The notes beneath the pieces were generated by a model. That model did no database searches and was not told the origin of the DNA. It saw only the letters and a list, made by a program, of their open reading frames with translations. From the NCBI GenBank assembly GCA_048940445.1, contig JBHLON010000016.1, positions 4,322 to 68,321 on the forward strand: a stretch of DNA of 64,000 bases, written 5' to 3'. Position numbers and translations under genes: made by a program. Positions 6,463-57,500 of this stretch are shown here, one piece after another. The stretch is from Promethearchaeota archaeon. GTDB taxonomy: Archaea > Asgardarchaeota > Lokiarchaeia > Sigyniarchaeales > SOKP01. Each line of letters starts with the position of its first letter. Positions within the stretch are counted from its first letter, which is position 1.

Positions 6463-6464
6463 TA

Positions 6465-41722: not shown

Positions 41723-42403
41723 TTACATTAAGACTTTTAATCCATCTTTAACTTTATAAGTTCGATTAAAACGATCAATTTCGATAAATCGTTTTATTTC
41801 AAGATTATTTAAGAAATCTCTCATTTCAATTGGATCTTTCTTTAGTTTTTCTGCTAAGCCTTCGATATTTTCTTCATAAGTACGTAATATTTCTATTAAT
41901 GAAGAATAATTTTCATAAATTTGATTAACAAGCTGTTTTAATACCTCATCAAGATTTTCTCCAGTTTTCGTGCTCGTGGGAAAAATTACAGCTTCTTGAG
42001 GTAAATAATTTTGAGCACGAACGACTTCAGGATGTCTTGCTCCTGCCATATCTTGCTTATTTGCTAAAAATATAATGGGAACATCTTCATTAATTACTTT
42101 TCTTATGGAATTCAAAATTATGATCGCATCTTCATCTTTCTCAGGATGGACAGCATCAAAAATAAAAATAATCCCATCAGTTCCCTTTAAAACAACATCT
42201 CTCATCACATTAAATCTTAACAATCCAGGAGTTCCGAAAAGAAATACATCAAAGCCATTTAGTTTTACACAGCCTAAGTCCATTCCTACTGTATAGTACT
42301 TATTATCTCTTGCCTTAGCCTCTACATTTAATGCATTTTCATCAAAATGCTTAATGAAAGATGATTTTCCACATTGCAATGGGCCTGATATAACTATTTT
42401 CAT
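41723..42403 (-). CDS. Small GTPase of the MglA/CvnD-like (COG2229) type with a C-terminal helical/wHTH-like tail
   Basis: G1 'GPLQCGKSS', G3 'FGTPGLLRF', G4 'ANKQD', G5-like 'TSTK'. A ~60-aa C-terminal extension. Confidence 0.75.
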   Translation of the reverse strand: MKIVISGPLQCGKSSFIKHFDENALNVEAKARDNKYYTVGMDLGCVKLNGFDVFLFGTPGLLRFNVMRDVVLKGTDGIIFIFDAVHPEKDEDAIIILNSIRKVINEDVPIIFLANKQDMAGARHPEVVRAQNYLPQEAVIFPTSTKTGENLDEVLKQLVNQIYENYSSLIEILRTYEENIEGLAEKLKKDPIEMRDFLNNLEIKRFIEIDRFNRTYKVKDGLKVLM

Positions 42404-42815
42404 TTTGTCGGAATTAAGTTCTCTATTGTAATTTATTATTCTTCTATTAACTTTTTTTGTTTTATTATTTCGATTAATATATAGATAATATAAATCACTT
42501 TTTTTTCTTATATTTGATTTTATTTAAGAATTTAGGCTCATATCTGTCAGTTAAATTTTGGCATATCAAGAGCTAATAATCTCATTTAACTCTTTTCTTT
42601 AAAAAAAATTACTAAATTCAATTATTTTTAATGAAAAAATGATCAAAGTGAATATATATTTGACAAAAAAAATTCTATTAAGGAAATATTTATATAGATA
42701 TATGATTTAATTTGTTAATTATAACGATATTAGTTTTAAAAATAAACAATCATTTTCAAAAAGGCCAATCTATTTTAGAAAAATAATGGTATTTCGAAAA
42801 AGAAAATGATCAAAA

Positions 42816-45800
42816 ATGGTAAGTAGTAAAATATTGATTATAGGTGGCGGAATTTCCGGTATAGAAGCAAGTCTTACGTTAGCTGAACAAGGTTATAAGG
42901 TTATACTTGTAGAAAAAACATCTTCTGTTGGTGGTAGGATGGCACAGTTAGATAAAACTTTTCCTACTTTAGATTGTTCAATCTGTATTCTGGCTCCCAA
43001 AATGGTTGAAGTATCTCGTCATCCAAACATCGAATTATTAGCATATTCTGAGGTACAAGAGATAAATGGTGAAGAAGGAAATTTTGATGTTAAAGTGCTT
43101 AAAAAGGCTAAATATGTAAATTGGGAAGCTTGTACTGGTTGTGCATCGTGTACTGAAAAATGTCCAATGAAGAAAATCCCTTCTGAATTTGAGGAGGGTA
43201 TGGGCAATAGAACAGCAATCTATATCCCATTCCCTCAAGCTGTTCCACGTAAAGCTGTAATAGACCCAGAAAAATGTCTATTTTTAACTAAAAATGCGTG
43301 TAAAATATGTGAAAAAGAGTGTGAAGCTGGAGCTATTAATTGGAATGATAAGGATGAAATTATAAATTACAACGTAGCTGCCATAATTGTGGCAACTGGA
43401 TTTGACCAACTTGATCCTTCCGTATTAGATAGATATCATTATGGGGAATATTCAAACGTAATAACTGCTATGCAATATGAACGCTTATTAAGTGCATCTG
43501 GTCCTACAGGGGGTGAAATTCTACGTCCTTCAGATAAGGCCCATGCAAATAGAATTGCATTTATTAGTTGTGTAGGATCAAGAAATGAAGATCTATGTTC
43601 ATATTGTTCTAAATTCTGTTGCATGTATCAAACTAAAGAGGCTGTAGTCACTCGAGAACATGCTCCAAACACAAATGTCACTATTTATTTTAATGATCTC
43701 AGAGTCATTGGAAAAAATCAAGATGAATTTACTGTACGGGCAAGAGAAGAATATAATTTAAAGTATCATCACGGAATACCCGGAGATGTTAGAGAAAATC
43801 CAGAAAATCATAATCTTATTGTAAAATCAGCTAATTTAGATACCGGTGAGGTTGATGTTGATGAATATGACCTCGTAGTACTAGCTAATGCTGTAACTCC
43901 ACGAAAAGACGCTGATAAACTTGCTAGCATTTTAGGGATCGAGCAAAACGAATTTGGATTTTTTAGAACTGCTAATTCAACTGAAGATTTAAGATCTACT
44001 AAGCCTGGAATTTATGTTACTGGTTCGTGTCAATCTCCTGATGATATAGCTAATTCAGTCGCGAAAGCAGGTGCTGCTGCTGTTCTAGCAGCAAGCCATG
44101 CTACACCTTTAAGTGAAGAGGAACAAAAAGTCGAATTACCCCCTTTAAAAGAAATTTTATCACATGATGAAGCTCGTATAGGTGTGTTCATTTGTAGATG
44201 TGGTATCAATATTGCGGGATATATTGATGTACCCTCTTTAGTAGAGTACGCTAAAACTCTTCCTAGTGTAGTTTATGCTGACGAAAATAAATATAGTTGC
44301 TCTCAATTAACCCAAGATATCATAAAAGAAAAAATTGAAGAGTTAAGTTTAAACCGTGTAGTAGTTGCTGCATGTACACCACGGACTCATGAGCCTTTAT
44401 TTCAAAAAACTATAAGAGAAGCTGGATTAAATGAGTATCTGTTTAATTTTGTTAGTATACGTGAATTAGATTCTTGGGTTCATATGAAAGACAATAAGAG
44501 GGCAACTGATAAAGCAAAAGATCTAATAAGAATGGGTGTAGCAAGAGTAATTTATCAAAAACCAGAATATAAAATTAGAGGAAATGTAGTTCCAGAGGCT
44601 TTGGTAGTCGGTGGGGGTATTACTGGAATAAATGCAGCAATAGAAATTTCTAATAAAGGATTTAGAGTACATCTGGTTGAAAAAGAAGATAAATTAGGTG
44701 GTCAATTAAATTTAATTTATAAAATTAACTCTGATCGAATCGATTCTGAAAAATATTTAGAAAATCAACTGAGAGAATATAATCAACTTAAAAACATAAA
44801 TACTTATCTAAATTCAGAATTAATAGATGTAAAAGGTTCTATCGGTGATTTTAATGTTAAAGTTAGAAATTCTGCGGATAACAAAAACATTGACTTGAAT
44901 GTGGGCACCATACTAATCACCACTGGTGCATATGAATATAAACCCATAGGTTGGTACCATTATGGTGAAAATGAAAATGTTATTACTCAATTAGAATTAT
45001 CCGGAAAATTGAGAAATAACGAGTTAAAAGATGGTGAAACTCTTGTTTTTATACATTGTGTAGGGTCTCGTCAACCAGAAGGTGGTAATGGAGTCACATA
45101 CTGTTCTCTGATTTGTTGTTCTGAATCAATTAGACATGCTTTATATGTAAAAGAGAACTATCCTAATTCAAATATTTACGTATTATATAGAGATATACGG
45201 GTTGGAACTGAGGAAGAATCCTTTTATTGGAAAGCTCGAGAAAATGTGAATTATATACGATTTAATGAGTATCCAACTGTTGATATTGAAAATCATCAAC
45301 TAAAAGTAAGAGTGCAAGATATCTTAACTCAAACCGATCTTACAATAGAAGCAGATAAAGTAGTACTTTCGACACCATTAATCCCCCACGATACTCAAAA
45401 ATTAGGAGAGATGATCAAATGTGCTAGAGATCAGAATGGATTTTTCTTAGAAGCTCATGTAAAATTGAGGCCTGTTGATTTCGCTACAGATGGAATCTAT
45501 TTGGCAGGAACATGTCATGGACCGAAAGGAATCTCTGATTCTATATCGCAAGCTAGGGGTGCTGCTGCCCATGCCTTAATACCCCTGATTTCTGGAGAAG
45601 TTGAGAATGAACCGTTAGTCTCAATAGTTAATCCTGCTTTATGCATTGCTTGCCAAAAATGTGAAGAAGCCTGCAATTTCGGAGCAATTGGGGTTAATTT
45701 TGATAATTCAATCTTAGTGTCTCAATCTAACCCTTTATTGTGTAAGGGATGCGGTGATTGTTCAGCCGCCTGTCCAACGGGAGCTATTATTATGCGTCAT

Positions 45801-46304
45801 TTTGCAGATGAACAAATATATCCTATGATTAAAGAAGCTGTTCGAGGAGAATTTATTGATGAGCGACCTCGTATAATTGCATTTTTATGCAATTGGTGTA
45901 GTTATGCTGGTGCAGATACATGTGGAGTAAGCCGATTCCAATATCCGACTAATATAAGACCTATTAGAGTAATGTGTACTGGGAGGATACCAAAGCATTT
46001 TATTTTACAAGCCTTTTTAGAAGGTGCTGACGGCGTATTAATTGGTGGATGTCATATTGGCGATTGTCATTACTTGGAGGGTAATTATGATATGTTAAGA
46101 CGATATAATGAAATTCGGGAAATGTTAGAAAAAGTAGGAATCAATGCAGAACGTATTCGACTAGAATGGGTTTCTGCAAGTGAAGGAAAGCGTTTTTCAC
46201 AGATAGTAACGGAATTCGTTACTAAAATAAAGCAACTTGGACCTTTACCTAAAACTGGTGATAAGGTAGAACTGAAAAAGGAGAAGATAAAGGAGGGGAC
46301 ATAA
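42816..46304 (+). CDS. hdrA: Tandem HdrA-like flavoprotein fused to an MvhD-like domain (heterodisulfide reductase subunit A family)
   Basis: There are two dinucleotide-binding motifs: 'IIGGGISGIEAS' (nt ~42840) and 'VVGGGITGINAA' (nt ~44610). Other HdrA-type motifs are 'GGRMAQLDKTFPTLDCSIC', two 'CVGSR...C..CC' segments, the mid-protein 'RIGVFICRCGINIAG' HdrA N-domain motif, and ferredoxin motifs 'CIACQKCEEAC'/'CKGCGDCSAACP'. The C-terminal 'IIAFLCNWCSYAGAD...RVMCTGR...GGCHIGDCHY' is MvhD/FlpD-like. Confidence 0.85.
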   Translation: MVSSKILIIGGGISGIEASLTLAEQGYKVILVEKTSSVGGRMAQLDKTFPTLDCSICILAPKMVEVSRHPNIELLAYSEVQEINGEEGNFDVKVLKKAKYVNWEACTGCASCTEKCPMKKIPSEFEEGMGNRTAIYIPFPQAVPRKAVIDPEKCLFLTKNACKICEKECEAGAINWNDKDEIINYNVAAIIVATGFDQLDPSVLDRYHYGEYSNVITAMQYERLLSASGPTGGEILRPSDKAHANRIAFISCVGSRNEDLCSYCSKFCCMYQTKEAVVTREHAPNTNVTIYFNDLRVIGKNQDEFTVRAREEYNLKYHHGIPGDVRENPENHNLIVKSANLDTGEVDVDEYDLVVLANAVTPRKDADKLASILGIEQNEFGFFRTANSTEDLRSTKPGIYVTGSCQSPDDIANSVAKAGAAAVLAASHATPLSEEEQKVELPPLKEILSHDEARIGVFICRCGINIAGYIDVPSLVEYAKTLPSVVYADENKYSCSQLTQDIIKEKIEELSLNRVVVAACTPRTHEPLFQKTIREAGLNEYLFNFVSIRELDSWVHMKDNKRATDKAKDLIRMGVARVIYQKPEYKIRGNVVPEALVVGGGITGINAAIEISNKGFRVHLVEKEDKLGGQLNLIYKINSDRIDSEKYLENQLREYNQLKNINTYLNSELIDVKGSIGDFNVKVRNSADNKNIDLNVGTILITTGAYEYKPIGWYHYGENENVITQLELSGKLRNNELKDGETLVFIHCVGSRQPEGGNGVTYCSLICCSESIRHALYVKENYPNSNIYVLYRDIRVGTEEESFYWKARENVNYIRFNEYPTVDIENHQLKVRVQDILTQTDLTIEADKVVLSTPLIPHDTQKLGEMIKCARDQNGFFLEAHVKLRPVDFATDGIYLAGTCHGPKGISDSISQARGAAAHALIPLISGEVENEPLVSIVNPALCIACQKCEEACNFGAIGVNFDNSILVSQSNPLLCKGCGDCSAACPTGAIIMRHFADEQIYPMIKEAVRGEFIDERPRIIAFLCNWCSYAGADTCGVSRFQYPTNIRPIRVMCTGRIPKHFILQAFLEGADGVLIGGCHIGDCHYLEGNYDMLRRYNEIREMLEKVGINAERIRLEWVSASEGKRFSQIVTEFVTKIKQLGPLPKTGDKVELKKEKIKEGT

Positions 46305-46307
46305 AAA

Positions 46308-46841
46308 ATGACTGAAATGTTAAAGAAAAATGCAAAGGAATTAGATGTAAACTTTCGCTATGAAATAGCAAAGAAGGTAGGGGCAAAATCCCTACTAAAA
46401 TGTATTCAATGCGGAGTATGTAGTTCTGGTTGTACTGTTACTGAATATGTTGATTTACAGCCACATCGAGTAGTTGCTTCATGCCTTCTAGGTTTAAAAC
46501 AAGAAGTTTTATCTAGTAACGCAATTTGGACTTGTTCATTATGTCATAGATGTACTGAAAGATGTCCGAAAAATGTTGATTATTCTTTCATTTTAGCATT
46601 ATTACGAAATTTGGCTGCAAAAGAAGGTAAAATCCCTAAAGAATATTCGAGTACAATTGAAGTTATTTATGATAATGGCTTTGTGGTACCCTATACTGAA
46701 GGTATGAAGAAGAATATTGATCGAAGGAGAGAAAGATTAGGATTACCAGAAATAGTTCCCCCCAATCTAGAAGAAATTAAACTAATAATTGATAAAACAG
46801 GATTAGGAAATCTTGTAATTAAAAAAGAGGTGGATAAATAA
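46308..46841 (+). CDS. hdrC: HdrC-like iron-sulfur subunit
   Basis: 'CIQCGVCSSGC' and 'CSLCHRCTERCP'. 177 aa, starting 3 nt after hdrA. Confidence 0.8.
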   Translation: MTEMLKKNAKELDVNFRYEIAKKVGAKSLLKCIQCGVCSSGCTVTEYVDLQPHRVVASCLLGLKQEVLSSNAIWTCSLCHRCTERCPKNVDYSFILALLRNLAAKEGKIPKEYSSTIEVIYDNGFVVPYTEGMKKNIDRRRERLGLPEIVPPNLEEIKLIIDKTGLGNLVIKKEVDK

Positions 46842-47726
46842 ATGGTAGATTATGCTTTATTTCTAGGGTGTACTATACCTTTGAAGCTCCCTCATCTTGA
46901 AAAAGCTTTTAGAGATGTTGCTAGTATTTTAGGATTAAGCTTAAAAGAAATGGAAGGAGTAAGCTGTTGTCCGGAACCAGTTTCTCTACAATCCCTAAAT
47001 ATTGATACATGGATGACTTTGGGTGCGAGAAACCTGTCCATAGCCGAAAAGATGGGATTAGATGTGTTAACTATCTGCTCTGGATGCTATGAGACCCTTA
47101 AAACAGTAAGTGTACTATTAGAAGAAGATAAAGATTATTTAGATAAGATTAATGTCTTATTGAAAAAGATTAATCATGAGTATAAAGGTAAAACAAAAGT
47201 TTATCATTTTGTAGAATTATTTACTGAACCTAAAATGCTTAGTAAAATTAAAAGCTTAGTAGTAAAACCTTTAGATGATTTAACCCTTGCTGTGCATTAT
47301 GGTTGTCACCTTGTAAGACCAAGTAAAATCATGCGTTTTGATCACCCGGAAAAACCAGAAAAAATAGATATTATACTTCAGGCACTCGGGGCAAATACCA
47401 TAAATTTTGCAACTAAATTAGAATGTTGTGGTTACTGCGCTCGTCTCCAAGAGGAAATCGGAGAAAAACTTGTAGAAGAAAAAATGACAGAACTATGTGA
47501 ATTAACTGAAGATGTTGATGCACTAATTGCCGTTTGCCCAGCTTGCGTTACACAATATGATAGAAAAGAAAAAATCATTGCTAGAAAAACAGGAAAGGAA
47601 TTAGATATACCTGTTCTTTATTTAGCAGAGCTTATGGCATTAGCTTTAGGAGTAAGTATTGAAGATCTTAGTCTGACAAATAGAAGTGTGAAACCTAACA
47701 AATTAATTGAAAAGTTAAGTATATAA
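46842..47726 (+). CDS. hdrB: HdrB-like subunit (two CCG domains)
   Basis: 'FLGCTIP', 'CCPEP', 'HYGCHLVRP', 'CCGY' and 'CPACV'. Abuts the hdrC stop. Confidence 0.85.
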   Translation: MVDYALFLGCTIPLKLPHLEKAFRDVASILGLSLKEMEGVSCCPEPVSLQSLNIDTWMTLGARNLSIAEKMGLDVLTICSGCYETLKTVSVLLEEDKDYLDKINVLLKKINHEYKGKTKVYHFVELFTEPKMLSKIKSLVVKPLDDLTLAVHYGCHLVRPSKIMRFDHPEKPEKIDIILQALGANTINFATKLECCGYCARLQEEIGEKLVEEKMTELCELTEDVDALIAVCPACVTQYDRKEKIIARKTGKELDIPVLYLAELMALALGVSIEDLSLTNRSVKPNKLIEKLSI

Positions 47727-47790
47727 AATTTTTTTCCAACCTATAATAAAAATTAAATTTATTTAAAAAATAAAAAAAATGTTATGAAAT

Positions 47791-48489
47791 ATGATAATAA
47801 CCCAATTAAAAGATATTGATGAATTATATGAATATATAAAGCCATATTCATCCATTTTAGTAGCTGGTTGTGATGGATGTTGTCAACCTCCCCGATCTTT
47901 AAATGAGGCAAAATTATTAGGTCAACTTCTTGAATTAAAGGCTAGAACTGAAGGTAAAAATCTTAAATGGAAAGCTATTACAGTCTTAAGACAATGTGAT
48001 GATAGAATTGTGGCAACGACTATACGACCTGTTTTAGAAGATTACGAAGCAATTATTACCCTAGCATGTGGTTTAGGCGTTGTAATGATGAATAAAGTAC
48101 TTCCGCAGAAACTAACATTTCCTGCTCAAAATAGCATGTTTGGAGGAGCTCAAAATAATGGTGAAAACAATTTTATCGAATTATGTGAAACTTGTGGTGA
48201 CTGTATCGTTGGAGAAACTGGAGGAGTATGTCCACGAGCGGGTTGTGCTAAACATTTAAGTAATGGACCATGTGGAGGTATGGTTGATGGGATGTGTGAA
48301 GTTAAAGGGTACACTGTTCCATGTGCATGGGTTGAAATATGGAAACGTTTGAAAGAATTCAATAGACTAGATTTATTTAAAAAATATAGAGGACCAAGAG
48401 ATTATAGAACTTCAACAAGCCCAGGATATATGGAAATCTATAAAGAATATGTTTCTGAAGAAGAACAAAGTAAAGAGGTGAAAAATTAA
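47791..48489 (+). CDS. metV: MetV-like Cys-rich small subunit of methylenetetrahydrofolate reductase (copy 1)
   Basis: 'CETCGDCIVGETGGVCPRAGCAKHLSNGPCGGMVDGMCEV' is the MTHFR_C-type zinc-ribbon signature. Immediately followed by metF. Confidence 0.75.
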   Translation: MIITQLKDIDELYEYIKPYSSILVAGCDGCCQPPRSLNEAKLLGQLLELKARTEGKNLKWKAITVLRQCDDRIVATTIRPVLEDYEAIITLACGLGVVMMNKVLPQKLTFPAQNSMFGGAQNNGENNFIELCETCGDCIVGETGGVCPRAGCAKHLSNGPCGGMVDGMCEVKGYTVPCAWVEIWKRLKEFNRLDLFKKYRGPRDYRTSTSPGYMEIYKEYVSEEEQSKEVKN

Positions 48490-49428
48490 ATGGGAAAAAG
48501 GCCAGCCTTCAGTAATCTTTGCAAGACAATTGAATCCGGAAAATTTGTTATAACGGGAGAACTGGAACCTAAGAAGATTTTAGATTTAAGTGAAATTCTT
48601 CATGGTGCTGAAGAAATGAAAAAGACTGGAAAAATTGTGGCTGCAAATGTCACTGATGGTCCACAAGGGGATGCATATATGTCTTCATTAGTTCCAAGTT
48701 ATTTAATCCAAGAAAAAGTAGGTATTGAGGCAGTATGGCAGGTAACAGTACGAGATCGTAACCGTGTAGCACTATTTGGAGATGTAATTGCTGGAGCAGT
48801 ATTAGGTTTGAAAAATATACTAACCCTTACAGGAGATCATACCGCACTCGGAGATCATAAAAAAGGAAGACCGGTATACGATATTGATAGCACACAATTC
48901 TGTGAAATGCTTTCTATTATGATTGACAATGGAACAGATTATGAAGGAAACGAATTAAAGGGTGGCAAGATTGAAATGAACTATGGATGTGTCGCAAATC
49001 CAAATAGTAACCCTAGAGAACCAGAGATACTAAAAGTTGGTCGGAAAGTTGAACAAGGAGTTGATTTCATTCAGACACAAACTGCATTTGATATTGATGA
49101 TGCTAAAGATTTCCTAAAAGATCTTGAACAATTTAACGTTCCGGTTCTATTAGGTATTTTTCCACTCAAATCTTTTGGTATTGCTGATTATTTCGATAAA
49201 TTTATTCCTGGAGTAAGTGTTCCAAAAGACCTTCTCAAATCTTTAAAAAAGGCAGAAAAAGATAATAAGGGAGATAAAAAAGCTAAATATGCCGCTATTG
49301 ATAAGATCAATATAGAATTTTTTGAACCATTTATTAATGAAATCAAAAAAACCACGAAAGCCGCGGGTATTCATTGTATGGCTGTAGAATATGAGAGATT
49401 ATTTGATCCATTATTGAAAGATTTCTAA
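48490..49428 (+). CDS. metF: MetF-like methylene-tetrahydrofolate (or -pterin) reductase (copy 1)
   Basis: TIM-barrel MTHFR-like motifs 'AANVTDGP', 'TVRDRN', 'NILTLTGDH', 'DFIQTQ' and 'LLGIFPL'. 312 aa. Confidence 0.8.
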   Translation: MGKRPAFSNLCKTIESGKFVITGELEPKKILDLSEILHGAEEMKKTGKIVAANVTDGPQGDAYMSSLVPSYLIQEKVGIEAVWQVTVRDRNRVALFGDVIAGAVLGLKNILTLTGDHTALGDHKKGRPVYDIDSTQFCEMLSIMIDNGTDYEGNELKGGKIEMNYGCVANPNSNPREPEILKVGRKVEQGVDFIQTQTAFDIDDAKDFLKDLEQFNVPVLLGIFPLKSFGIADYFDKFIPGVSVPKDLLKSLKKAEKDNKGDKKAKYAAIDKINIEFFEPFINEIKKTTKAAGIHCMAVEYERLFDPLLKDF

Positions 49429-49479
49429 ATAATTTAATTATATTAATTACATTTTTTTAAAAATGGAAGAAGGGAAATT

Positions 49480-49938
49480 ATGAAAAATTTGGATGAGAAA
49501 GATAAAAAAATATTAGAAATGTTGATAGAGGATTCACGTAGACCTTATCATGAGATAGGGAAAGAAGTTGATCTCTCTGAATCTACTGTTAGGAAACGTG
49601 TAATTAGATTACAGGAAGATGGAGTAATCGAAAAATTCACAATTAAAGTATGTCGTGAGGAAGAAAGATGTATTTACGCTTTTGTAACCTTATTACCTAA
49701 AAATCAATCAGAAATCAAAGAGTTAATTAGAGAGACTCAGATTTTGCCTCAATGCGAAGAAGTGTATTTCTTAGCAGGAGAGTGTGGGATCTTACTGAAA
49801 GTCAACGTTCCTGAGATTACAGAACTCGATGCGTTAATAGAAAATTTTCGAGGTAGAAGTGATATTAAAAGTGTAGAGAGGGTGTGTGTTGTACTTAAAC
49901 CTATTAAAACTTTGACTCAGAATGGTATTTCACCTTAA
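49480..49938 (+). CDS. Lrp/AsnC-family transcriptional regulator
   Basis: 'LDEKDKKILEMLIEDSRRPYHEIGKEVDLSESTVRKRVIRLQEDGVI'. Lies 51 nt downstream of metF on the same strand. Confidence 0.8.
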   Translation: MKNLDEKDKKILEMLIEDSRRPYHEIGKEVDLSESTVRKRVIRLQEDGVIEKFTIKVCREEERCIYAFVTLLPKNQSEIKELIRETQILPQCEEVYFLAGECGILLKVNVPEITELDALIENFRGRSDIKSVERVCVVLKPIKTLTQNGISP

Positions 49939-50007
49939 TATGCATATTAACCAAATCGAACTTAATATATTAAAAGTAAATGACGATGCATAGTTAATTT
50001 TTGGAGT

Positions 50008-50901
50008 TTAAGAATTATTTTTAAGAAAATTTATGATAATTTCAGCTAACTCGGTTCCTTTATCTTCTTGAATGAAATGACTCGCATTTTGTATTGTGAT
50101 ATGATTTTGATCATGGGCACCTGGAATTATTTTTTGCCAGAATTTATCCCCATCTTTAGTAATTGGGTCACTATCAGAAAATACAGTTAAAAATGGTTTT
50201 TTCCATTTCCGAAACTGTTCTATTGCTTTTTTATTTAAGACATGTTCTGGGTCCTCAGTACTAATTGGAACTAAAGATGGCATGATACGAGGACCAACCT
50301 TATAAGACTCGTCAGGAAATGGAGCATCATATGCTTTCAGCGTTTCCACTGACAATTCAGAAGTGGTCCCTGATTATATGATGGCTTTTATATCGAGTTT
50401 TGGAGATGTTCTTGAAAACTCTCGCCATTGCATAAAAGCCTTATTCATTTTCTGCTCTCCTGTGGGTAATCCTCCATTTGATAAAATTATTCGACTGAAC
50501 CGTTCTTTATTTTCAATAGCAACTCTTAAACCAATTAAAGAACCCCAATCTTGACAAAATAATGTGATATGTTTCAAATTGAGTGATTTAACCCATTTTG
50601 TTATCCATTTAACATGCGTACGGTAAGTATGATCACTTAATGCGCTAGGTTTATCAGATCTTCCAAAACCTACTAAATCTGGTGCGAGAGTTCGGTATCC
50701 TGCTTCCACAATAATTGAAACCATATGTCTATACAAATAACTCCATGTAGGTTCACCATGCATTAATAAGACACAATCTTTACTTTTTGGCCCCTCATTA
50801 ATATAGTGGATTCTTATTCCATCAATTACTATATAACGAGGTTCAAAGGGAAAATCAGGCAGATTTTGAAATCTTTCTTCTGGAGTCCGTAATAATTTCA
50901 T
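50008..50901 (-). pseudogene. Haloalkane dehalogenase (DhlA-like, HLD-I type) interrupted by a single in-frame TAA
   Basis: Track ORFs 50374..50901 and 50008..50355 are in the same frame (start offsets differ by 546 nt). Read through, the junction is ...KLDIKAII*SGTTSELSVETLKAYDAPFPD... with the TAA at 50374-50376. Motifs 'HGEPTWSYLYR', 'APDLVGFGRSDKP', 'CQDWGS' (nucleophile Asp), 'AYDAPFPD' and 'ASHFIQED' are all present. Confidence 0.8.
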
Positions 50902-50933
50902 TTATTTGTCAATCTTTTTGGAGTTTATTATAA

Positions 50934-51968
50934 TTATAATATATTATTAACGTAATAAAATATTCTTCCTTCTTCTTCTTTAATTTTCACTTTTTGCTCG
51001 CGCTCTAAATACTTTAAATGCCCTAAGACTTCACTTAATGCCATATATGAATTAATCTCATCAAGATCATCACCGAAATGCATTTTAGATATTTCTAATG
51101 GTGTCATAGGATTATCTTTAATTAAGGTAGAAATCTCTCTCAATCTATTGTTATGATGTTCCTTGATTGCTAAAATTCGTTCGTGAGGATTATAAATAAT
51201 TTCTTGATGACCTGGAAATATTATTTTTGGTTTTAGTTCGTCAATTTTATCTAAAGACTTCAAATAATGATCTAAAATATTGTCAAAATCATAGGCTTTA
51301 TATTTTTCAGATAGACTAGAGGGTATAATAAAATTGCCTATATGAGGAGTTATTCTAGAAAGAATATGATCTCCAGAAAAAAGATATTTTCTTTTAGTGT
51401 CAAAAATACATATATGCCCAAAACTATGCCCTGGAGTCCAAATAATTTTTAAATTGTTTAAGATTGTATCACCATCTTGGACAATTTTATCAGGTCTCTG
51501 ATATCGCAAATATTGCGGCCAAAAAGTAAAAAATTGAACTATTCTTTTCCTATTTTTGTCAGTAATTCCATATTTCATCATTAATTTAGCAAGTTCATTT
51601 GCCTTTTGAGTCATTTCTTCTAATTTAGCATCATTTGTTTCCCATTCTAGAATCTGATAGGTAATATCACTCATCACTAGTTTCAGTTTTTCATTCTTCC
51701 GCTTTAAAGTTTTTGCTAATCCGATATGATCAACATGAATATGAGTAATAATACAGTAATCAATATCTTGAGTAGAAAATCCTGCTTTTCTTAAAACTGA
51801 AAAAAATTTTTTGTTCCAATTACCCATATTAAGTCCAGCATCTATAAGAACTAATTTATCCTCAATCTCAAAAAGATAAAGACAAACATATTTAACCGCA
51901 AACGGAACTTCGATCCTTATCTGAAAAACATCTTCAATTTTAGTGATCTCTGATTTAAAATCATACAA
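50934..51968 (-). CDS. MBL-fold metallo-hydrolase with C-terminal helical/wHTH-like domain
   Basis: 'ITHIHVDHIG' (HxHxDH), 'TPGHSFGH' and 'SGDHI'. 344 aa. Confidence 0.8.
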   Translation of the reverse strand: MYDFKSEITKIEDVFQIRIEVPFAVKYVCLYLFEIEDKLVLIDAGLNMGNWNKKFFSVLRKAGFSTQDIDYCIITHIHVDHIGLAKTLKRKNEKLKLVMSDITYQILEWETNDAKLEEMTQKANELAKLMMKYGITDKNRKRIVQFFTFWPQYLRYQRPDKIVQDGDTILNNLKIIWTPGHSFGHICIFDTKRKYLFSGDHILSRITPHIGNFIIPSSLSEKYKAYDFDNILDHYLKSLDKIDELKPKIIFPGHQEIIYNPHERILAIKEHHNNRLREISTLIKDNPMTPLEISKMHFGDDLDEINSYMALSEVLGHLKYLEREQKVKIKEEEGRIFYYVNNIL

Positions 51969-52073
51969 GTTACGGGCCTTAATATAATCTATTATTCTTT
52001 AATAAGTAAAACATTCAAAATTTTAGTATTTTCCGAATTCTGGAATTATAAAAAGATATAAAAAAAATATAAT

Positions 52074-52769
52074 TTAGGTCTTTAAACCATAATACATAAA
52101 CCAAAAACTGCTTAAATATCCAATTCTCACAAATATTACTGCATAACCGAGTTCGCTTAACCCTTCTAACAACCCAAAAACACAGAAGAATATAGACCCC
52201 AAGGACAATAGTAGAAACTTTTTTCTTAATATACCTGTTGATTGAATGCTTTTGACTAAGAATCCAATTCCAAGTAGAATTATTACGCTAAGAAGAAAAA
52301 TAGCCATTAAAATACCTGCTATAGAGAAAACTTTAACATTATAATCAATTAACAATTCTGCTCTAGGTACAAAATTAAAAGCACTAAATGGATAAATAAA
52401 GATCAGAATCTCAAAGATAATACTTAAAATTACGAATAAAATTACTATATACCATTTAAATTTGGGTATTTGAAGTTCTGCACCAATATATATTGATGTG
52501 ATAATCGCAGGTGCAAGCCAAATATAACTTAAAATCCCAACAATACCATCACTGTTATCTATGTTTGTCTTGATTATTAACATATATAAAAAATCTAAAA
52601 ACACTCCTAAATACATTAATCCCGCAAATAAATTTGCTAAACCTAAATAATTCAAGATCTTAGCATTAGTCTTTCTTGCTTTATATATGAAAAATAAACC
52701 AAAAACTACGCCAAAAATAACCACTCCGGAGGCTGTAATTCCATCAATCCATCCAAATGGATTAAGCAT
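52074..52769 (-). CDS. Polytopic (about 7-TM) membrane protein of unknown function
   Basis: About seven hydrophobic stretches of 20-25 aa across 231 aa. No family motif recognised. Confidence 0.6.
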   Translation of the reverse strand: MLNPFGWIDGITASGVVIFGVVFGLFFIYKARKTNAKILNYLGLANLFAGLMYLGVFLDFLYMLIIKTNIDNSDGIVGILSYIWLAPAIITSIYIGAELQIPKFKWYIVILFVILSIIFEILIFIYPFSAFNFVPRAELLIDYNVKVFSIAGILMAIFLLSVIILLGIGFLVKSIQSTGILRKKFLLLSLGSIFFCVFGLLEGLSELGYAVIFVRIGYLSSFWFMYYGLKT

Positions 52770-52947
52770 TTTACATTCACCACTAGTTTTAATAATTAAA
52801 TTGATAATTTTATCCTAAATTATCAATTTAATTCTTAATAATATTAATACAAACTCAGTTTATAAATAACTATGGTAAAAGAAGAATAATAAATTCAATC
52901 AAATTTGGCTCTGTTTTGAAAATCCATAATACCTAAAAAATTTCAGT

Positions 52948-53238
52948 TTATCTCTCTTGCCCCTGATTTTTATCTTTTTCAAAGAAGAGTGATTTTTTTA
53001 TATCAAATTCAAGGTCTCTTAATTTTCTTTTTATTTCTGTTGGATTGTAATCTTTTTTCAGCATATCAATTATAGTCTCTTTTAGATTTTCCAAGTTATC
53101 TATTGCACACTGATAAAAAATATTATTTTCATCCATACTCATATTTAGAATCTCATATAATCCCGTAAGAGCATCTCTTATTTTTTCATAATATTCCCAT
53201 GCCTTCTCTAATTCGGTTTCTTTTTTATTGTCAGACAT
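52948..53238 (-). CDS. Small helical hypothetical protein
   Basis: 96-aa ORF with charged, helical character and no motif. Confidence 0.4.
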   Translation of the reverse strand: MSDNKKETELEKAWEYYEKIRDALTGLYEILNMSMDENNIFYQCAIDNLENLKETIIDMLKKDYNPTEIKRKLRDLEFDIKKSLFFEKDKNQGQER

Positions 53239-53366
53239 CGTCGCTAGATCAATGTATAGTTAATTTAAAAAATGATTTGTAACTTATAACATTTCCTTAA
53301 AAGAATTAAGGGATAAGGATATGATATATCTTAAATAAAATAAGGAAATATATAAAAATAAATTAG

Positions 53367-55841: not shown

Positions 55842-56513
55842 ATGGTCGTAATTACTACTAAAAAACCAGATGAAGAAGTTTTTGAAGCAATAGAAAATTA
55901 TAATGTAAAGAAATTAACAATTGTATCTTGTGGAACTTGCGCTGCTTTATGTCAGACAGGAGGAACTGAGGGAGCAGAAGAGTGGAGAAAAAAGTTACAA
56001 GATAAGGGCTATGAAGTAGAAGCTGCAATTGTATCAGAAGATGTATGTGATAATAGAGTAATGAAAAAAGATTTGCGGAAAATTGATGATGAAATAAAAG
56101 CATCTGATGCTATTTTGACATTAAGTTGTGGACTTGGTGTTCAATCAATTGTAGAGGTACTTCAGAAAAAGTATCCAGAAAAACCAGTTCTCATTTCTAA
56201 TAATACTAAATTTATTGGAATGACAGAAAGAATCGGTCGATTCTATATGCGATGCAGGGCCTGTGGTGATTGCTATTTGAATTATTCTGGGGGGATTTGT
56301 CCAATTGCAACATGTGCTAAGGGTTTAATGAATGGTCCGTGTGGAGGAATGGTTGACGGAAAGTGCGAAGTGGGTAATTATGAAAGAGATTGTGGGTGGA
56401 TTTTGATCTTTAATCGATTAAAAGCAATAGGCAGATTGGACCTATTTAGTGAATTGCGAGATGCTCGAGATTGGTCTGAATCTGGTCATCAACAAGAAGT
56501 CATATTTAGATAG
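55842..56513 (+). CDS. metV: MetV-like Cys-rich small subunit (copy 2)
   Basis: 'CRACGDCYLNYSGGICPIATCAKGLMNGPCGGMVDGKCEV' is collinear with copy 1 at 47791. The N-terminal 'SCGTCAALC' and 'LSCGLGVQ' parallel 'GCDGCCQ' and 'LACGLGVV' in copy 1. Confidence 0.75.
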   Translation: MVVITTKKPDEEVFEAIENYNVKKLTIVSCGTCAALCQTGGTEGAEEWRKKLQDKGYEVEAAIVSEDVCDNRVMKKDLRKIDDEIKASDAILTLSCGLGVQSIVEVLQKKYPEKPVLISNNTKFIGMTERIGRFYMRCRACGDCYLNYSGGICPIATCAKGLMNGPCGGMVDGKCEVGNYERDCGWILIFNRLKAIGRLDLFSELRDARDWSESGHQQEVIFR

Positions 56514-56528
56514 GGGTGAAACAATAGT

Positions 56529-57467
56529 ATGACAGAAGTTAAAGTTTTTTCAAAATTAGGACAGGCTCTTGCAAAAGGAGAATTTATTTTAACTGGTGAA
56601 TTGGAGCCTGAGAAAACTTGTGATCTTTCTCATACAGTTCAAGAAGCTAAGGAAATGGCTCCCTTTGTTATTGCTGCTAATGTAACTGACAGTCCACTTG
56701 GTATTGTTACTATCAATAGTTTAGCATCATCTTATATTATACAAAGAGACGCTGGTTTGGAATGCATATGGCAGTTGACTGTTAGAGATGTTAATAAACT
56801 TGGAATATCTGGAATGATAATGGGAGCACAAGCTCTTGGGATACATAATATTCTTTCCTTAACAGGAGATCATCCAGCATTGGGAGATATGCCTGAAAGT
56901 AAACCTGTTTTTGATTTAGATTCTGCTACTCTAGTAAAATTAGTCAGAGAAATGGTAGATACTGGTAAGATCAATAATTATGAAATAGAAGCACCACCAA
57001 GACTTCATGTTGGTGCTGCTGCTAATCCAAATGCTGAACCAATGGAAGCAGAGGTGTTGAAGATTGGACGTAAAGCCAAAGCAGGAGCTGAATTTTTACA
57101 GACTCAAGTAGTGTATGACTTAGATCGTACGATTGAATTTTTAACAGCAATTAAGAGATATGGTGTACCTATCCTATTAGGGATATTTCCAATGAAGAGT
57201 TATGCGATAGCAAAAGGTTTTGATGAATTTGTCCCAGGAGTCTCCGTACCCAAAGATATTCTTGCGAAATGGAAATCGATCAAAACTGAATATTCCAATG
57301 ATAAGAAGATGCAAAAAGAAGCTTATGATTATGCAAATTATGAATTTTTTAAACCATTTATTACAGAACTTAGACAAAAGAATCTTCTAGCCGGGATTCA
57401 CTGTATGGCAGTCCATTACCCTCGAATTTTCCCAAAGTTAGAAGAGATAATAAAAAGTATTAATTAA
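56529..57467 (+). CDS. metF: MetF-like methylene-tetrahydrofolate (or -pterin) reductase (copy 2)
   Basis: Same length (312 aa) and the same motifs as copy 1: 'AANVTDSP', 'TVRDVN', 'NILSLTGDH', 'EFLQTQ' and 'LLGIFPM'. Confidence 0.8.
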   Translation: MTEVKVFSKLGQALAKGEFILTGELEPEKTCDLSHTVQEAKEMAPFVIAANVTDSPLGIVTINSLASSYIIQRDAGLECIWQLTVRDVNKLGISGMIMGAQALGIHNILSLTGDHPALGDMPESKPVFDLDSATLVKLVREMVDTGKINNYEIEAPPRLHVGAAANPNAEPMEAEVLKIGRKAKAGAEFLQTQVVYDLDRTIEFLTAIKRYGVPILLGIFPMKSYAIAKGFDEFVPGVSVPKDILAKWKSIKTEYSNDKKMQKEAYDYANYEFFKPFITELRQKNLLAGIHCMAVHYPRIFPKLEEIIKSIN

Positions 57468-57500
57468 ATAATATAATTATTTTTTTTAATTCCCCTTAAA

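What the first reader, a model, noticed from the sequence alone, without database searches (positions are those of the whole stretch)
42816..49938. hdrA(-mvhD)-hdrC-hdrB-metV-metF(-lrp) cluster: candidate electron-bifurcating methylene-pterin reductase in an archaeal genome
Six + strand genes are packed with gaps of 3, 0, 64, 0 and 51 nt. Their products carry the following signatures:
- HdrA: FAD plus Fe-S.
- MvhD-like domain, fused to the HdrA C-terminus.
- HdrC: two CxxCxxCxxxCP-type clusters.
- HdrB: CCG motifs 'CCPEP' and 'CCGY'.
- MetV: 'CGDC...GGVCP...NGPCGG'.
- MetF/MTHFR-like.

This component set matches the MetFV-HdrABC-MvhD complex known from the acetogen Moorella thermoacetica. Here it sits in an archaeon that also encodes archaeal-type C1 and central-carbon genes in the same window (FmdE-like, glyA, 4-subunit POR, GTP-PEPCK). 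I see no Mer-type gene in the window, so it may supply the methylene-to-methyl step of an archaeal Wood-Ljungdahl pathway.

Pterin specificity (H4F vs H4MPT), electron partners and actual bifurcation are all unknown. The trailing Lrp/AsnC gene suggests dedicated regulation.
Basis: partly seen in the sequence, partly recalled or inferred. Interest (0 to 1): 0.7.

Follow-up and report, generated by a model that had tools for sequence, protein, structure and literature searches.

The report
Asgard Hdr-linked methylene-pterin reductase cluster
A six-gene cluster, conserved across dozens of Asgard (Lokiarchaeia-type) archaeal genomes, places a methylene-tetrahydropterin reductase (MetVF) next to a heterodisulfide-reductase-like flavin and iron-sulfur module. 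It is probably an energy-coupling step of one-carbon metabolism; the type is known in outline from acetogenic bacteria but has not been studied in these relatives of eukaryotes.

Summary
Six + strand ORFs (42816-49938, gaps 3/0/64/0/51 nt) encode a 1162-aa tandem HdrA with a fused MvhD domain, then HdrC, HdrB, MetV, MetF and an Lrp/AsnC regulator. Every cofactor motif is intact.

The window comes from an Asgard (Promethearchaeota/Lokiarchaeia-type) MAG. The order hdrA-hdrC-hdrB-metV-metF is kept in 66 of 80 related species-level genomes. In the other 14, a different MvhD-ending flavoprotein sits directly before metV. lrp follows metF in 75 of 80.

HdrA is a heterodimer in one chain. Module 1 keeps the inserted ferredoxin domain, Cys197 and the Glu/Lys signature of a bifurcating flavin. 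[quoted passage not shown] There is no NAD(P)H-binding module, unlike Moorella.

MetF belongs to the archaeal clade that includes ANME-1, Syntrophoarchaeum and Bathyarchaeia. Some members of that clade sit beside H4MPT-type Wood-Ljungdahl genes.

Verdict: this is a real, conserved archaeal variant of the Hdr-type MetVF reductase. Its function is inferred only. Bifurcation, pterin specificity, the partner that docks on MvhD, the role of HdrBC and co-transcription all remain untested.

The parts
42685..42696 (+). TATA-box-like element AATATTTATATA, about 120 nt upstream of the hdrA ATG. Candidate archaeal promoter of the cluster.
   Evidence: The consensus AA..TTTATAtA is kept at 80% or more in an alignment of 56 orthologous upstream regions. 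Position confirmed. Promoter function is inferred.
42816..46304 (+). hdrA: 1162-aa fusion of two HdrA modules, a C-terminal ferredoxin domain and MvhD.
   Evidence: 67 full-length orthologues carry the same fusion.
42816..44165 (+). HdrA module 1 (aa 1-450). It has the thioredoxin-reductase-like FAD domain and the inserted 2x[4Fe-4S] ferredoxin domain (aa ~100-175). It keeps C54/C57 (= Cys194/Cys197 of 5ODC_A) and E222/K274 (= E356/K409, the signature of a bifurcating flavin). It has no N-terminal domain and no C-terminal ferredoxin domain.
   Evidence: Alignment to 5ODC_A. The E/K criterion comes from PMC9430772. These residues are invariant in 67 orthologues.
44166..45851 (+). HdrA module 2 (aa 451-1012). 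It has the HdrA N-terminal [4Fe-4S] domain, a second FAD domain and the C-terminal 2x[4Fe-4S] ferredoxin domain (aa 938-993). The second FAD domain lacks the DCSIC motif and the inserted ferredoxin domain, and has Ser and Arg in place of E356 and K409.
45864..46259 (+). MvhD/FlpD domain (aa 1017-1148) fused to HdrA. It is the presumed docking and electron-entry module, with a [2Fe-2S] cluster.
   Evidence: PF02662, E 8.9e-53. It matches 5ODC_D and 8RVU_F at E ~1e-49.
46308..46841 (+). hdrC-like gene; product carries 2x[4Fe-4S].
   Evidence: TIGR03290, E 3.9e-30, below the equivalog cut-off. Two CX2CX2CX3C motifs.
46842..47726 (+). hdrB-like gene; product has two complete CCG motifs (sites for non-cubane clusters).
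   Evidence: PF02754. TIGR03288, E 9e-82, below the cut-off. Motifs confirmed.
47729..47735 (+). T7 tract 2 nt after the hdrB stop. Candidate archaeal terminator or attenuator.
   Evidence: A run of five or more T is present in 62 of 63 orthologous hdrB-metV spacers. Coordinates confirmed. Function not shown.
47791..48489 (+). metV1: Fe-S/zinc-ribbon-type small subunit of MetVF, with 13 Cys.
   Evidence: PF12225, E 2e-28. Cys pattern shared with MetV2. A natural MetV-MetF fusion, P0172, exists.
48490..49428 (+). metF1: (beta-alpha)8 flavoprotein, a methylene-tetrahydropterin reductase of the archaeal (ANME-1, Syntrophoarchaeum, Bathyarchaeia) clade.
   Evidence: PF02219. AF2 model with pLDDT 90.4. 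All top-50 PDB matches are MTHFRs. Clade placement.
49452..49458 (+). T7 tract after the metF stop. Candidate terminator or attenuator.
   Evidence: A run of five or more T is present in 72 of 74 orthologous metF-lrp spacers. Coordinates confirmed.
49480..49938 (+). Lrp/AsnC-family regulator conserved next to metF.
   Evidence: Pfam and NCBIfam hits. It lies directly after metF in 75 of 80 loci.
55842..57467 (+). Second, Hdr-free metV2 (55842-56513) and metF2 (56529-57467) pair. This paralogue of the reductase core is relevant to the redundancy and specificity arguments.
   Evidence: Pfam. 36% and 45% identity to MetV1 and MetF1. An orthologue lies within 10 kb of metF1 in 16 of 80 loci.

Best explanation
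The cluster encodes an archaeal variant of the Hdr-type MetVF methylene-tetrahydropterin reductase.

Proposed roles of the parts (inferred):
- MetF1 is a flavin TIM-barrel and MetV1 an Fe-S subunit. Together they interconvert methylene- and methyl-tetrahydropterin. The pterin is more likely H4MPT-like than H4F, but this is unresolved.
- The 1162-aa HdrA folds as a heterodimer within one chain and has a single complete redox pathway.
- They reach the FAD of module 1, which carries the Glu/Lys signature of bifurcating flavins.
- The high-potential branch runs through the module-1 cluster (and probably HdrC/HdrB) to MetV and MetF.

Net reaction (inferred): a mid-potential donor that docks on MvhD, plus oxidised ferredoxin, plus CH2=H4X, gives reduced ferredoxin plus CH3-H4X. 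The donor could be a hydrogenase, a formate dehydrogenase or an FrhB-like module and is unknown. The reaction could also run in reverse as a confurcation during methyl-group oxidation. In this scheme methylene-pterin takes the place of the heterodisulfide as the high-potential acceptor. The Lrp/AsnC gene regulates the unit.

Shown here: gene content, intact cofactor ligands, domain asymmetry, synteny and clade membership. Inferred: complex formation, electron path, bifurcation, substrate and direction.
For: - All six families are assigned with strong E-values.
- The gaps are 0-64 nt.
- hdrA-hdrC-hdrB-metV-metF is conserved in 66 of 80 Asgard species-level genomes. In the other 14 an MvhD-terminated flavoprotein still directly precedes metV, so MetVF1 is never without such a partner.
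- An Hdr-free MetVF2 paralogue exists in the same window. This implies that MetVF1 is the copy specialised for the Hdr link.
- HdrA domain mapping onto the solved MvhADG-HdrABC structure shows complementary loss of the N-terminal domain/C-terminal ferredoxin domain in module 1 and of Cys197/the inserted ferredoxin domain in module 2. Chadwick et al. interpret this same pattern as a fused heterodimer.
- 38 of the 40 Cys in HdrA (which include all the positions I assign as Fe-S ligands), together with E222 and K274, are conserved in at least 56 of 67 orthologues; 34 of them are invariant.
- HdrB keeps both CCG motifs and HdrC both 4Fe-4S motifs.
- In S. ovata, pull-downs show that MetF/MetV bind HdrA, HdrB and MvhD (PMC9430772).
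- A natural MetV-MetF fusion and two MetF-CdhD fusions exist among relatives.
- Archaeal-clade MetVF lies beside HdrA genes plus FlpD in Syntrophoarchaeum, beside Mtd in Bathyarchaeia, and between CODH/ACS and Mch/Ftr/Fwd, followed by a ferredoxin-FlpD protein, in a Hadarchaeales-like contig.
- The MetF1 model is a confident MTHFR-type barrel. The Glu24, Asp116 and Gln195/197 positions are invariant in the family alignment.
Against: - There is no biochemical evidence for any archaeal member.
- Even the bacterial prototypes have not been shown to bifurcate. The Moorella complex has an unknown second acceptor, and S. ovata showed no ferredoxin or NAD+ co-reduction.
- No hydrogenase, Fdh or FrhB gene that could dock on MvhD lies in the 64-kb window.
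- Conserved oligo-T tracts after hdrB and metF may end transcripts.
- 14 of 80 relatives lack hdrCB between the flavoprotein gene and metV. HdrBC may therefore not be the wire to MetV.
- ANME-1 MetVF has no Hdr neighbour.
- HdrB, HdrC and HdrA score below the NCBIfam equivalog cut-offs.
- Pterin specificity is unresolved. Cultured Lokiarchaeia are reported to have fhs/folD/metF and to lack the H4MPT branch.
Confidence: 0.55

Rival explanations
1. Non-bifurcating electron wire. The Hdr/MvhD module only delivers electrons from one donor (reduced ferredoxin, a hydrogenase, F420H2 or a membrane chain) to MetVF, with no energetic coupling. This is what the data for Sporomusa ovata suggest.
For: In S. 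ovata, H2-dependent methylene-THF reduction showed no co-reduction of ferredoxin or NAD(P)+, and the complex was loose and membrane-associated. Module 2 of the Asgard HdrA lacks the E/K signature. MetVF alone can be ferredoxin-dependent in clostridia (PMC8515935 and PMC8760232, listed).
Against: Module 1 keeps the E/K signature, Cys197 and the inserted ferredoxin domain that binds ferredoxin in the methanogen enzyme, and these are invariant in 67 orthologues. Both bacterial HdrAs lack that domain in the corresponding part. A plain wire would not need about 1600 residues of flavin and Fe-S protein kept at 72-89% identity.
Confidence: 0.25
2. Two independent systems that are merely neighbours. 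One is an HdrABC-MvhD disulfide reductase that works with a hydrogenase on an unknown thiol/disulfide pair. The other is a stand-alone MetVF reductase.
For: Conserved T-tracts after hdrB and metF. HdrB keeps both disulfide-site CCG motifs. Asgard literature assumes that MvhADG-HdrABC acts on an unidentified heterodisulfide. ANME-1 MetVF stands alone.
Against: An MvhD-ending flavoprotein is adjacent to MetVF1 in 80 of 80 loci despite rearrangements, including replacement by a GltD-like-MvhD fusion. A separate free MetVF2 paralogue exists. MetVF is likewise linked to HdrA/FlpD genes in Syntrophoarchaeum and in a Hadarchaeales-like contig. Physical interaction has been shown in S. ovata.
Confidence: 0.1
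3. The unit is real, but it serves H4F-dependent anabolism or amino-acid catabolism (methionine methyl supply, or glycine, serine and histidine breakdown) rather than a Wood-Ljungdahl methyl branch.
For: Cultured Lokiarchaeia are reported to encode fhs, folD and metF and to lack most of the H4MPT branch. The Lokiarchaeia ancestor is inferred to have FolD at about 1 copy and Fhs at 0.5-0.8. The trailing regulator is of the amino-acid-responsive Lrp/AsnC type.
Against: An anabolic reductase would not need an Hdr module. MetF1 is 72-93% identical across 80 species, which is typical of a core catabolic enzyme. Archaeal-clade relatives sit in H4MPT Wood-Ljungdahl neighbourhoods. The GlyA in the window is far closer to the M. 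jannaschii enzyme (E 1e-138) than to bacterial H4F enzymes (E 1e-60). That the M. jannaschii enzyme is H4MPT-dependent is from my own knowledge.
Confidence: 0.15

Closest known systems
Moorella thermoacetica MetFV-HdrABC-MvhD (Mock et al. 2014, as described in PMC9430772 and PMC9012536)
   Same: The same six protein families sit in one gene cluster. HdrA is built from two HdrA-like modules with complementary domain loss. Methylene-pterin reduction is proposed as the exergonic arm of a flavin-based bifurcation.
   Different: - Moorella HdrA is 1487 aa. It carries a GltD-type NAD(P)H/FAD module and has the E/K signature in both modules. The Asgard HdrA is 1162 aa, has no such module and has E/K in module 1 only.
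- The Asgard HdrA keeps the inserted ferredoxin domain.
- MvhD is fused here and is a separate protein in Moorella.
- The gene order differs: hdrCBA-mvhD-metVF in Moorella.
- MetF1 is only about 36% identical to clostridial-type MetF. Direct identity to Moorella was not measured.
- The pterin is probably different.
Sporomusa ovata Hdr-type MTHFR (PMC9430772)
   Same: HdrA has the same module order: an N-terminal TrxR-like module with E/K, then N-domain + TrxR + C-terminal ferredoxin domain. It has no NAD(P)H module. MetVF interacts with HdrA/B and MvhD.
   Different: S. ovata HdrA (942 aa) has no inserted ferredoxin domain, and MvhD is a separate protein. The complex is membrane-associated and linked to quinone and cytochrome, and no bifurcation was found.
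MvhADG-HdrABC of methanogens (PDB 5ODC and others)
   Same: All HdrA domains, MvhD, the HdrC clusters and the HdrB CCG motifs are present, with E-values of 1e-204 and 1e-49. Ferredoxin is presumed to leave through the inserted ferredoxin domain.
   Different: The methanogen enzyme is a homodimer of 650-aa HdrA with two symmetric paths. Here one chain mimics a heterodimer with one path. The acceptor is presumed to be methylene-pterin through MetVF rather than CoM-S-S-CoB. No MvhAG genes lie nearby.
Fused or tandem HdrA3/4, 5/6 and 12/13 of ANME archaea, and the MetFV-HdrA-MvhD clusters of Ca. Syntrophoarchaeum (Chadwick et al. 2022, PMC9012536)
   Same: Complementary Cys197 and N-terminal-domain loss implies a heterodimer. 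MetF belongs to the same archaeal clade: the Hdr-linked Syntrophoarchaeum MetF is 51% identical to MetF1.
   Different: In ANME HdrA3/4 the N-terminal half carries the N-terminal domain and lacks Cys197, which is the opposite order to here. Syntrophoarchaeum has several separate hdrA genes after metVF and no hdrBC in the stretch seen. ANME-1 metVF is not Hdr-linked.
Methanosarcina acetivorans HdrA2B2C2 (HdrA-MvhD fusion; PMC5296606)
   Same: MvhD is fused to the C-terminus of HdrA. It is the best NCBIfam model for the window protein (NF040770, 1180 bits).
   Different: HdrA2 has a single HdrA module of about 780 aa. It reduces CoM-S-S-CoB and ferredoxin with F420H2 and has no MetVF partner. 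The high score here is summed over three stretches of a duplicated protein.
Stand-alone MetVF reductases of clostridial acetogens (for example C. ljungdahlii; PMC8515935)
   Same: The MetV+MetF heterodimer core. This is the best analogue for the second pair, metV2-metF2, at 55842-57467.
   Different: They have no Hdr module, use H4F as substrate, and are 33-36% identical.

Membership tests
Hdr-type MTHFR (MetFV-HdrABC-MvhD) | Adjacent metV and metF, with MetF of the MetV-associated (non-E. coli) type | tested here: met
   PF12225 and PF02219 on adjacent ORFs with a 0-nt gap. MetF1 is much closer to clostridial and YitJ-type MetF (E ~1e-45; NF006396, 1e-52) than to E. coli and Thermus MTHFR (E 5e-6).
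Hdr-type MTHFR (MetFV-HdrABC-MvhD) | hdrA, hdrB and hdrC homologues in the same cluster, with intact cofactor motifs | tested here: met
Hdr-type MTHFR (MetFV-HdrABC-MvhD) | MvhD/FlpD component | tested here: met
   Present as a fused C-terminal domain of HdrA: PF02662, E 8.9e-53, and 5ODC_D, E 1e-48.
Hdr-type MTHFR (MetFV-HdrABC-MvhD) | NAD(P)H-oxidising GltD-like module in HdrA (Moorella form only) | tested here: not met
   No Fer4_20/GltD hit in the window HdrA. Its alignment to 5ODC_A is colinear with no large insertion. Such a module does occur in the L067 and L068 relatives. S. ovata also lacks it.
Hdr-type MTHFR (MetFV-HdrABC-MvhD) | Physical complex of MetVF with HdrABC-MvhD | not testable with these tools
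   Only indirect support: synteny in 80 of 80 loci and pull-downs in S. ovata.
Hdr-type MTHFR (MetFV-HdrABC-MvhD) | Methylene-H4F as substrate | not testable with these tools
   Neighbourhoods of clade relatives point to H4MPT. Literature on cultured Lokiarchaeia points to H4F.
Flavin-based electron-bifurcating HdrA | Glu356/Lys409-equivalent residues at the FAD (criterion of Appel et al. 2021, as quoted in PMC9430772) | tested here: met
   E222 and K274 in module 1 are invariant in 67 orthologues. Module 2 has Ser/Arg. The signature is a correlate of bifurcation, not proof.
Flavin-based electron-bifurcating HdrA | Demonstrated coupled reduction of a low-potential and a high-potential acceptor | not testable with these tools
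   Needs enzymology.
CoB-CoM heterodisulfide reductase HdrABC (methanogen equivalogs) | Score above the NCBIfam equivalog cut-offs for HdrA, HdrB and HdrC | tested here: not met
   HdrA NF041778: 768.8 against a cut-off of 1400. HdrB TIGR03288: 274.5 against 345. HdrC TIGR03290: 104.7 against 160. Only the HdrA2 'exception' model passes (1180.6 against 1100), and that score is summed over a duplicated protein.
MTHFR fold family (PF02219) | (beta-alpha)8 barrel of MTHFR type with the catalytic Glu and Asp | tested here: met
   AF2 model with pLDDT 90.4 and pTM 0.90. The top 50 Foldseek PDB hits are all MTHFRs, with TM 0.7-0.8. E24 and D116 are invariant. D116 aligns with the RGD Asp of the Thermus enzyme. 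The equivalence to E. coli Glu28 and Asp120 is my inference.
Archaeal 'ANME-1-type' MetF clade (Chadwick et al. 2022) | Groups with MetF of ANME-1, Syntrophoarchaeum, Bathyarchaeia and other uncultured archaea, apart from bacterial MetF | tested here: met
   45-51% identity to these against 33-36% to clostridial MetF. A neighbour-joining tree (distance method only) places MetF1 and MetF2 inside this clade.
Lrp/AsnC regulators | N-terminal AsnC-type HTH plus C-terminal ligand-binding (RAM) domain | tested here: met
   PF13404, E 8.6e-15, and PF01037, E 4.6e-7. Ligand and target are unknown.

The most novel reading that the evidence does not exclude
In Lokiarchaeia the long-sought 'unknown heterodisulfide' of one HdrABC paralogue may not be a disulfide at all, but methylene-H4MPT. 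On this reading the single-chain HdrA heterodimer plus MetVF1 forms an F420-independent substitute for Mer. [quoted passage not shown] Such an enzyme could run forwards (bifurcating, for acetogenesis) or backwards (confurcating, producing H2 or formate in syntrophy). That would give the archaeal lineage related to eukaryotes a dedicated energy-coupling site. MetVF2 would serve the other pterin pool.
Probability: 0.2. Interest if true: 0.8.

Novelty: new variant of a known kind. Interest (0 to 1): 0.55.

Why it matters
- Models of Asgard metabolism (hydrogen dependence, syntrophy, reverse flow) depend on how these organisms balance ferredoxin, H2 or formate, and C1 units. The papers I read leave the acceptor of Asgard Hdr complexes as 'an unidentified heterodisulfide'.
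- A MetVF-Hdr unit kept at 72-93% identity in at least 80 species-level genomes names a concrete candidate acceptor.
- Whether the methylene-pterin reductase step conserves energy is also unsettled in acetogens.
- The Asgard form is a simpler architecture. It has one bifurcation-type FAD, one ferredoxin-binding domain, no NADH module and a fused MvhD. It should therefore be easier to reconstitute and to solve structurally.
- The free MetVF2 paralogue in the same genome is a natural control for pterin specificity and for the effect of the Hdr module.
- None of the open-access papers I searched describes this cluster in Asgard archaea. The closest statements are in Chadwick et al. 2022.

Tried and rejected
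- A 20-sequence MetF alignment (A1) was too divergent for the genome scan. Moorella, Sporomusa and cultured Lokiarchaeia loci could not be fetched, and direct identities to them were not measured.
- I could not test whether this genome holds mer, mtd, mch, ftr, fwd, cdh, fhs, folD or a hydrogenase outside the window.
- tblastn with Mtd and with CdhA-E, Mch, Ftr and FwdC from other archaeal contigs found nothing in the window or in the ±10 kb flanks of the 80 Asgard loci.
- Rfam found no RNA family in 42300-57600 at E ≤ 1. A riboswitch-type leader is therefore not supported.
- The sigma-70 promoter/terminator scanner was not used because the organism is an archaeon. I used conservation of the upstream and spacer sequences instead.
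- No solved structure has a MetV-like sequence.
- A MetV structure prediction was not attempted. No admissible alignment could be built under the tool's input rule.
- Sousa et al. 2016 is not held in the library, and PMC12222021 has no supplements held. One literature search was badly designed and uninformative. PMC5103874 was irrelevant.
- I considered and rejected the idea that the tandem HdrA is an assembly artefact, because 67 independent MAG contigs carry the same fusion.

Full report
**1. Observation**

The gaps are 3, 0, 64, 0 and 51 nt.

Profile searches confirm every family assignment (Pfam, NCBIfam):
- The 1162-aa first protein carries two FAD/pyridine-nucleotide-disulfide-oxidoreductase stretches, 4Fe-4S domains and a C-terminal FlpD/MvhD domain (PF02662, E 8.9e-53, residues 1020-1142).
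- HdrC matches TIGR03290 at E 3.9e-30.
- HdrB has the CCG domain and matches TIGR03288 at E 9e-82.
- MetV is PF12225 (E 2e-28).
- MetF is PF02219 (E 2e-26).
- The last gene encodes an Lrp/AsnC regulator.

The HdrB, HdrC and HdrA scores lie below the NCBIfam equivalog cut-offs. These are therefore Hdr-family proteins, not demonstrable CoB-CoM heterodisulfide reductases.

The context genes it named are real: FmdE-like, GlyA, PEPCK and four POR-type subunits.

**2. Source organism**

The exact protein sequences are in NCBI as MFX1497477-MFX1497482. They come from a 'Promethearchaeota archaeon' MAG, on a contig of 70,396 bp. Close relatives (72-93% MetF identity) come from MAGs titled Promethearchaeota or Promethearchaeia, including Loki_b31 and the ABR and AMARA bins. 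The window is ~30% G+C. This is an Asgard archaeon, most likely of the Lokiarchaeia (Promethearchaeia) class.

**3. HdrA is a heterodimer in one chain**

I aligned HdrA to the solved methanogen HdrA, 5ODC_A.

Module 1 (residues 1-450):
- It is a thioredoxin-reductase-like FAD domain that contains the inserted 2x[4Fe-4S] ferredoxin domain.
- It keeps the DCSIC motif (C54/C57 = Cys194/Cys197).
- It keeps E222 and K274, the equivalents of E356 and K409. These residues are used to tell bifurcating from non-bifurcating HdrA flavins (PMC9430772).

Module 2 (residues 451-1012):
- It lacks DCSIC and the inserted ferredoxin domain.
- It has Ser and Arg at the E and K positions.

MvhD follows at residues 1017-1148.

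In the methanogen enzyme, Cys197 of one protomer completes the N-terminal-domain cluster of the other. Chadwick et al. read complementary loss of Cys197 and the N-terminal domain in tandem or fused HdrAs as evidence for an obligate heterodimer. The window protein shows that complementarity, so it should hold one complete electron path rather than two.

In 67 full-length orthologues, 38 of the 40 Cys in HdrA, together with E222 and K274, are conserved in at least 56 sequences; 34 of these Cys, E222 and K274 are invariant. These include all the positions I assign as Fe-S ligands. The fusion is therefore real and under selection.

**4. Comparison with the bacterial prototypes**

The source is PMC9430772.
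- Moorella HdrA is 1487 aa. It has a GltD-type NAD(P)H/FAD module, three FAD sites and the E/K signature in both modules.
- S. ovata HdrA is 942 aa. It has the same module order as here and the E/K signature only in the N-terminal module.
- Both lack the inserted ferredoxin domain in the C-terminal part, and both have MvhD as a separate protein.

The Asgard protein has no GltD-like domain. Its alignment to 5ODC_A is colinear. It keeps the inserted ferredoxin domain and fuses MvhD. NADH is therefore an unlikely donor, and interaction with ferredoxin is likely. The parts list matches Moorella. The architecture is a distinct variant.

**5. Synteny**

One scan of species-representative genomes found 443 stretches that encode relatives. 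The best 80 are all Asgard MAGs. tblastn with the window proteins gave the following picture.
- hdrA-hdrC-hdrB-metV-metF is present in 66 of 80 loci. Seven of these are cut by a contig end.
- In the other 14 loci an MvhD-ending flavoprotein lies directly before metV, with no hdrCB in between.
- lrp lies directly after metF in 75 of 80.
- The flanking PEPCK, small-GTPase and metallo-beta-lactamase-fold genes are often syntenic as well.

The 14 variant loci are informative.
- Most have a 47%-identical tandem HdrA with the E/K signature in both modules.
- L063, L065 and L079 also have hdrC-hdrB and an unfused hdrA pair plus mvhD upstream.
- L067 and L068 have instead a 910-aa GltD-like (Fer4_20 + Pyr_redox_2)-ferredoxin-MvhD fusion.
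- L070 has an FrhB/FdhB-like gene beside the cluster.

The invariant feature is therefore an MvhD-terminated flavoprotein next to MetVF1. The electron-input chemistry varies, and HdrBC is not always interposed.

**6. A second MetVF pair**

The window also holds metV2 (55842-56513) and metF2 (56529-57467), with no Hdr neighbours. MetF2 is 45% identical to MetF1, and MetV2 is 36% identical to MetV1. An orthologue of MetF2 lies within 10 kb of MetF1 in 16 of 80 loci.

Eme et al. infer about 2.3 MTHFR copies for the Lokiarchaeia ancestor. For the same ancestor they infer:
- Mtd, Mch, Ftr, Fwd and CODH/ACS.
- FolD at about 1 copy and Fhs at 0.5-0.8.
- 2.6-3.1 copies of the broad COG2141 family, 'Mer or related'.

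The two paralogues may serve different pterin pools or different directions.

**7. Which MetF?**

- MetF1 models as a confident (beta-alpha)8 barrel (pLDDT 90.4). All top PDB matches are MTHFRs.
- In a library of 50%-identity cluster representatives, its nearest neighbours are only 47-49% identical.
- One of these, P0171, is the Lokiarchaeia MetF2 type. Another, P0170, is from Bathyarchaeota.
- The P0170 family contains Bathyarchaeia, Ca. Syntrophoarchaeum, Hadarchaeales and ANME-1 (Methanophagales) proteins.
- A neighbour-joining tree puts MetF1 and MetF2 inside this archaeal clade, apart from the clostridial and YitJ types. This agrees with Chadwick et al..

Genomic contexts of clade members:
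- Syntrophoarchaeum: metV-metF, then several hdrA genes and FlpD.
- ANME-1: metVF alone.
- Bathyarchaeia: Mtd lies divergently adjacent and NfnAB-like genes lie downstream.
- A Hadarchaeales-like contig: the CODH/ACS operon on one side, a ferredoxin-FlpD protein directly after metF, and Mch, Ftr and Fwd genes nearby.

Two relatives are MetF-CdhD fusions and one is a MetV-MetF fusion.

These contexts tie the archaeal clade to the H4MPT-type Wood-Ljungdahl pathway. No such genes lie within 10 kb of the Asgard clusters.

The GlyA in the window is far closer to the M. jannaschii enzyme (E 1e-138) than to bacterial enzymes (E 1e-60). That the M. jannaschii enzyme is H4MPT-dependent is from my own knowledge. 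Against this, cultured Lokiarchaeia are reported to have fhs/folD/metF and to lack the H4MPT branch. Pterin specificity stays open, with a lean towards H4MPT.

**8. Transcription signals**

- A TATA-like AATATTTATATA (42685-42696) is conserved about 120 nt upstream of hdrA in 56 loci.
- A T7 tract follows the hdrB stop (47729-47735). Another follows the metF stop (49452-49458).
- Runs of five or more T occur in 62 of 63 orthologous hdrB-metV spacers and in 72 of 74 metF-lrp spacers.
- Oligo-T is the archaeal intrinsic termination signal (established knowledge).
- The cluster may therefore be read as up to three units, or be attenuated. Co-transcription is not shown.
- No Rfam family matches the region.

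**9. Mechanism and verdict**

The best-supported reading is an Hdr-coupled MetVF reductase. In it, methylene-pterin replaces the heterodisulfide as the high-potential acceptor. Ferredoxin is the low-potential partner, reached through the inserted ferredoxin domain. An unidentified donor docks on MvhD.

The thermodynamics allow either direction (my own knowledge of the standard potentials):
- H2 or formate (about -414 mV) could drive ferredoxin reduction (about -500 mV) together with CH2=H4X reduction (about -200 mV).
- In reverse, the same enzyme could confurcate at low H2.

This reading is an inference from homology and synteny. No archaeal member has been assayed, and the bacterial prototypes have not been shown to bifurcate. 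I give it a confidence of 0.55. The main rival is a non-bifurcating electron wire, at 0.25.

The finding is a new variant of a known kind. The open-access papers I could search do not describe it in Asgard archaea. The closest prior statements are in Chadwick et al. 2022.

Noticed in passing
window 55842-57467 (+): Second metV2-metF2 pair with no Hdr genes. It is 36% and 45% identical to MetV1 and MetF1, and it is linked to the first cluster in at least 16 related genomes.
   Followed up: partly
window 50008-50901 (-): An alpha/beta-hydrolase (haloalkane-dehalogenase-like) gene is split into two ORFs, 50374-50901 and 50008-50355. This is a frameshift or stop: either a pseudogene or an assembly error.
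   Followed up: no
window 41723-42403 (-), 31849-32778 (+), 16545-17750 (-): Eukaryote-like proteins. A Ras/Arf-family small GTPase lies divergent from hdrA and is syntenic in most related loci. There is also a Gtr1/RagA-like GTPase and a CLP1-type P-loop protein.
   Followed up: no
window 1751-7370: The POR-type 2-oxoacid:ferredoxin oxidoreductase genes are interrupted. The gamma subunit (1751-2359) is separated from delta, alpha and beta (4859-7370) by a 747-aa PAS-rich histidine kinase on the opposite strand (2356-4599).
   Followed up: no
L067:6545-9277 and L068 (same position): In two related Asgard genomes the tandem HdrA before metV is replaced by a 910-aa GltD-like (Fer4_20 + Pyr_redox_2)-2x4Fe4S-MvhD fusion. 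This suggests an NAD(P)H-linked version of the same unit.
   Followed up: partly
L065:650-9250; L070:535-9268: Relatives carry hdrC-hdrB (L063, L065, L079), an unfused hdrA pair (431 aa + 555 aa, split exactly at the module boundary of the fused protein) and a 250-aa MvhD protein. These are followed by a second, fused tandem hdrA and then metVF. L070 also has an FrhB/FdhB-like gene upstream. This looks like a record of duplication and fusion.
   Followed up: partly
window 47729-47735 and 49452-49458: Oligo-T tracts immediately after the hdrB and metF stop codons are conserved in nearly all orthologous spacers (62 of 63 and 72 of 74).
   Followed up: partly
L084:1-16927 (Hadarchaeales-like contig): metV-metF sits between a complete CODH/ACS operon (with RACo) and a tandem ferredoxin-FlpD protein, with Mch, Ftr and Fwd subunit genes nearby. 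It is a compact archaeal Wood-Ljungdahl island that uses MetVF.
   Followed up: partly
window 62203-63420 (-), 58728-59909 (-), 37352-37813 (-): Three unexamined genes: a universal-stress-protein fusion with a PCP_red (protochlorophyllide-reductase C-terminal) domain, a LuxE-like acyl-protein synthetase, and a second Lrp/AsnC regulator next to the thermosome gene.
   Followed up: no
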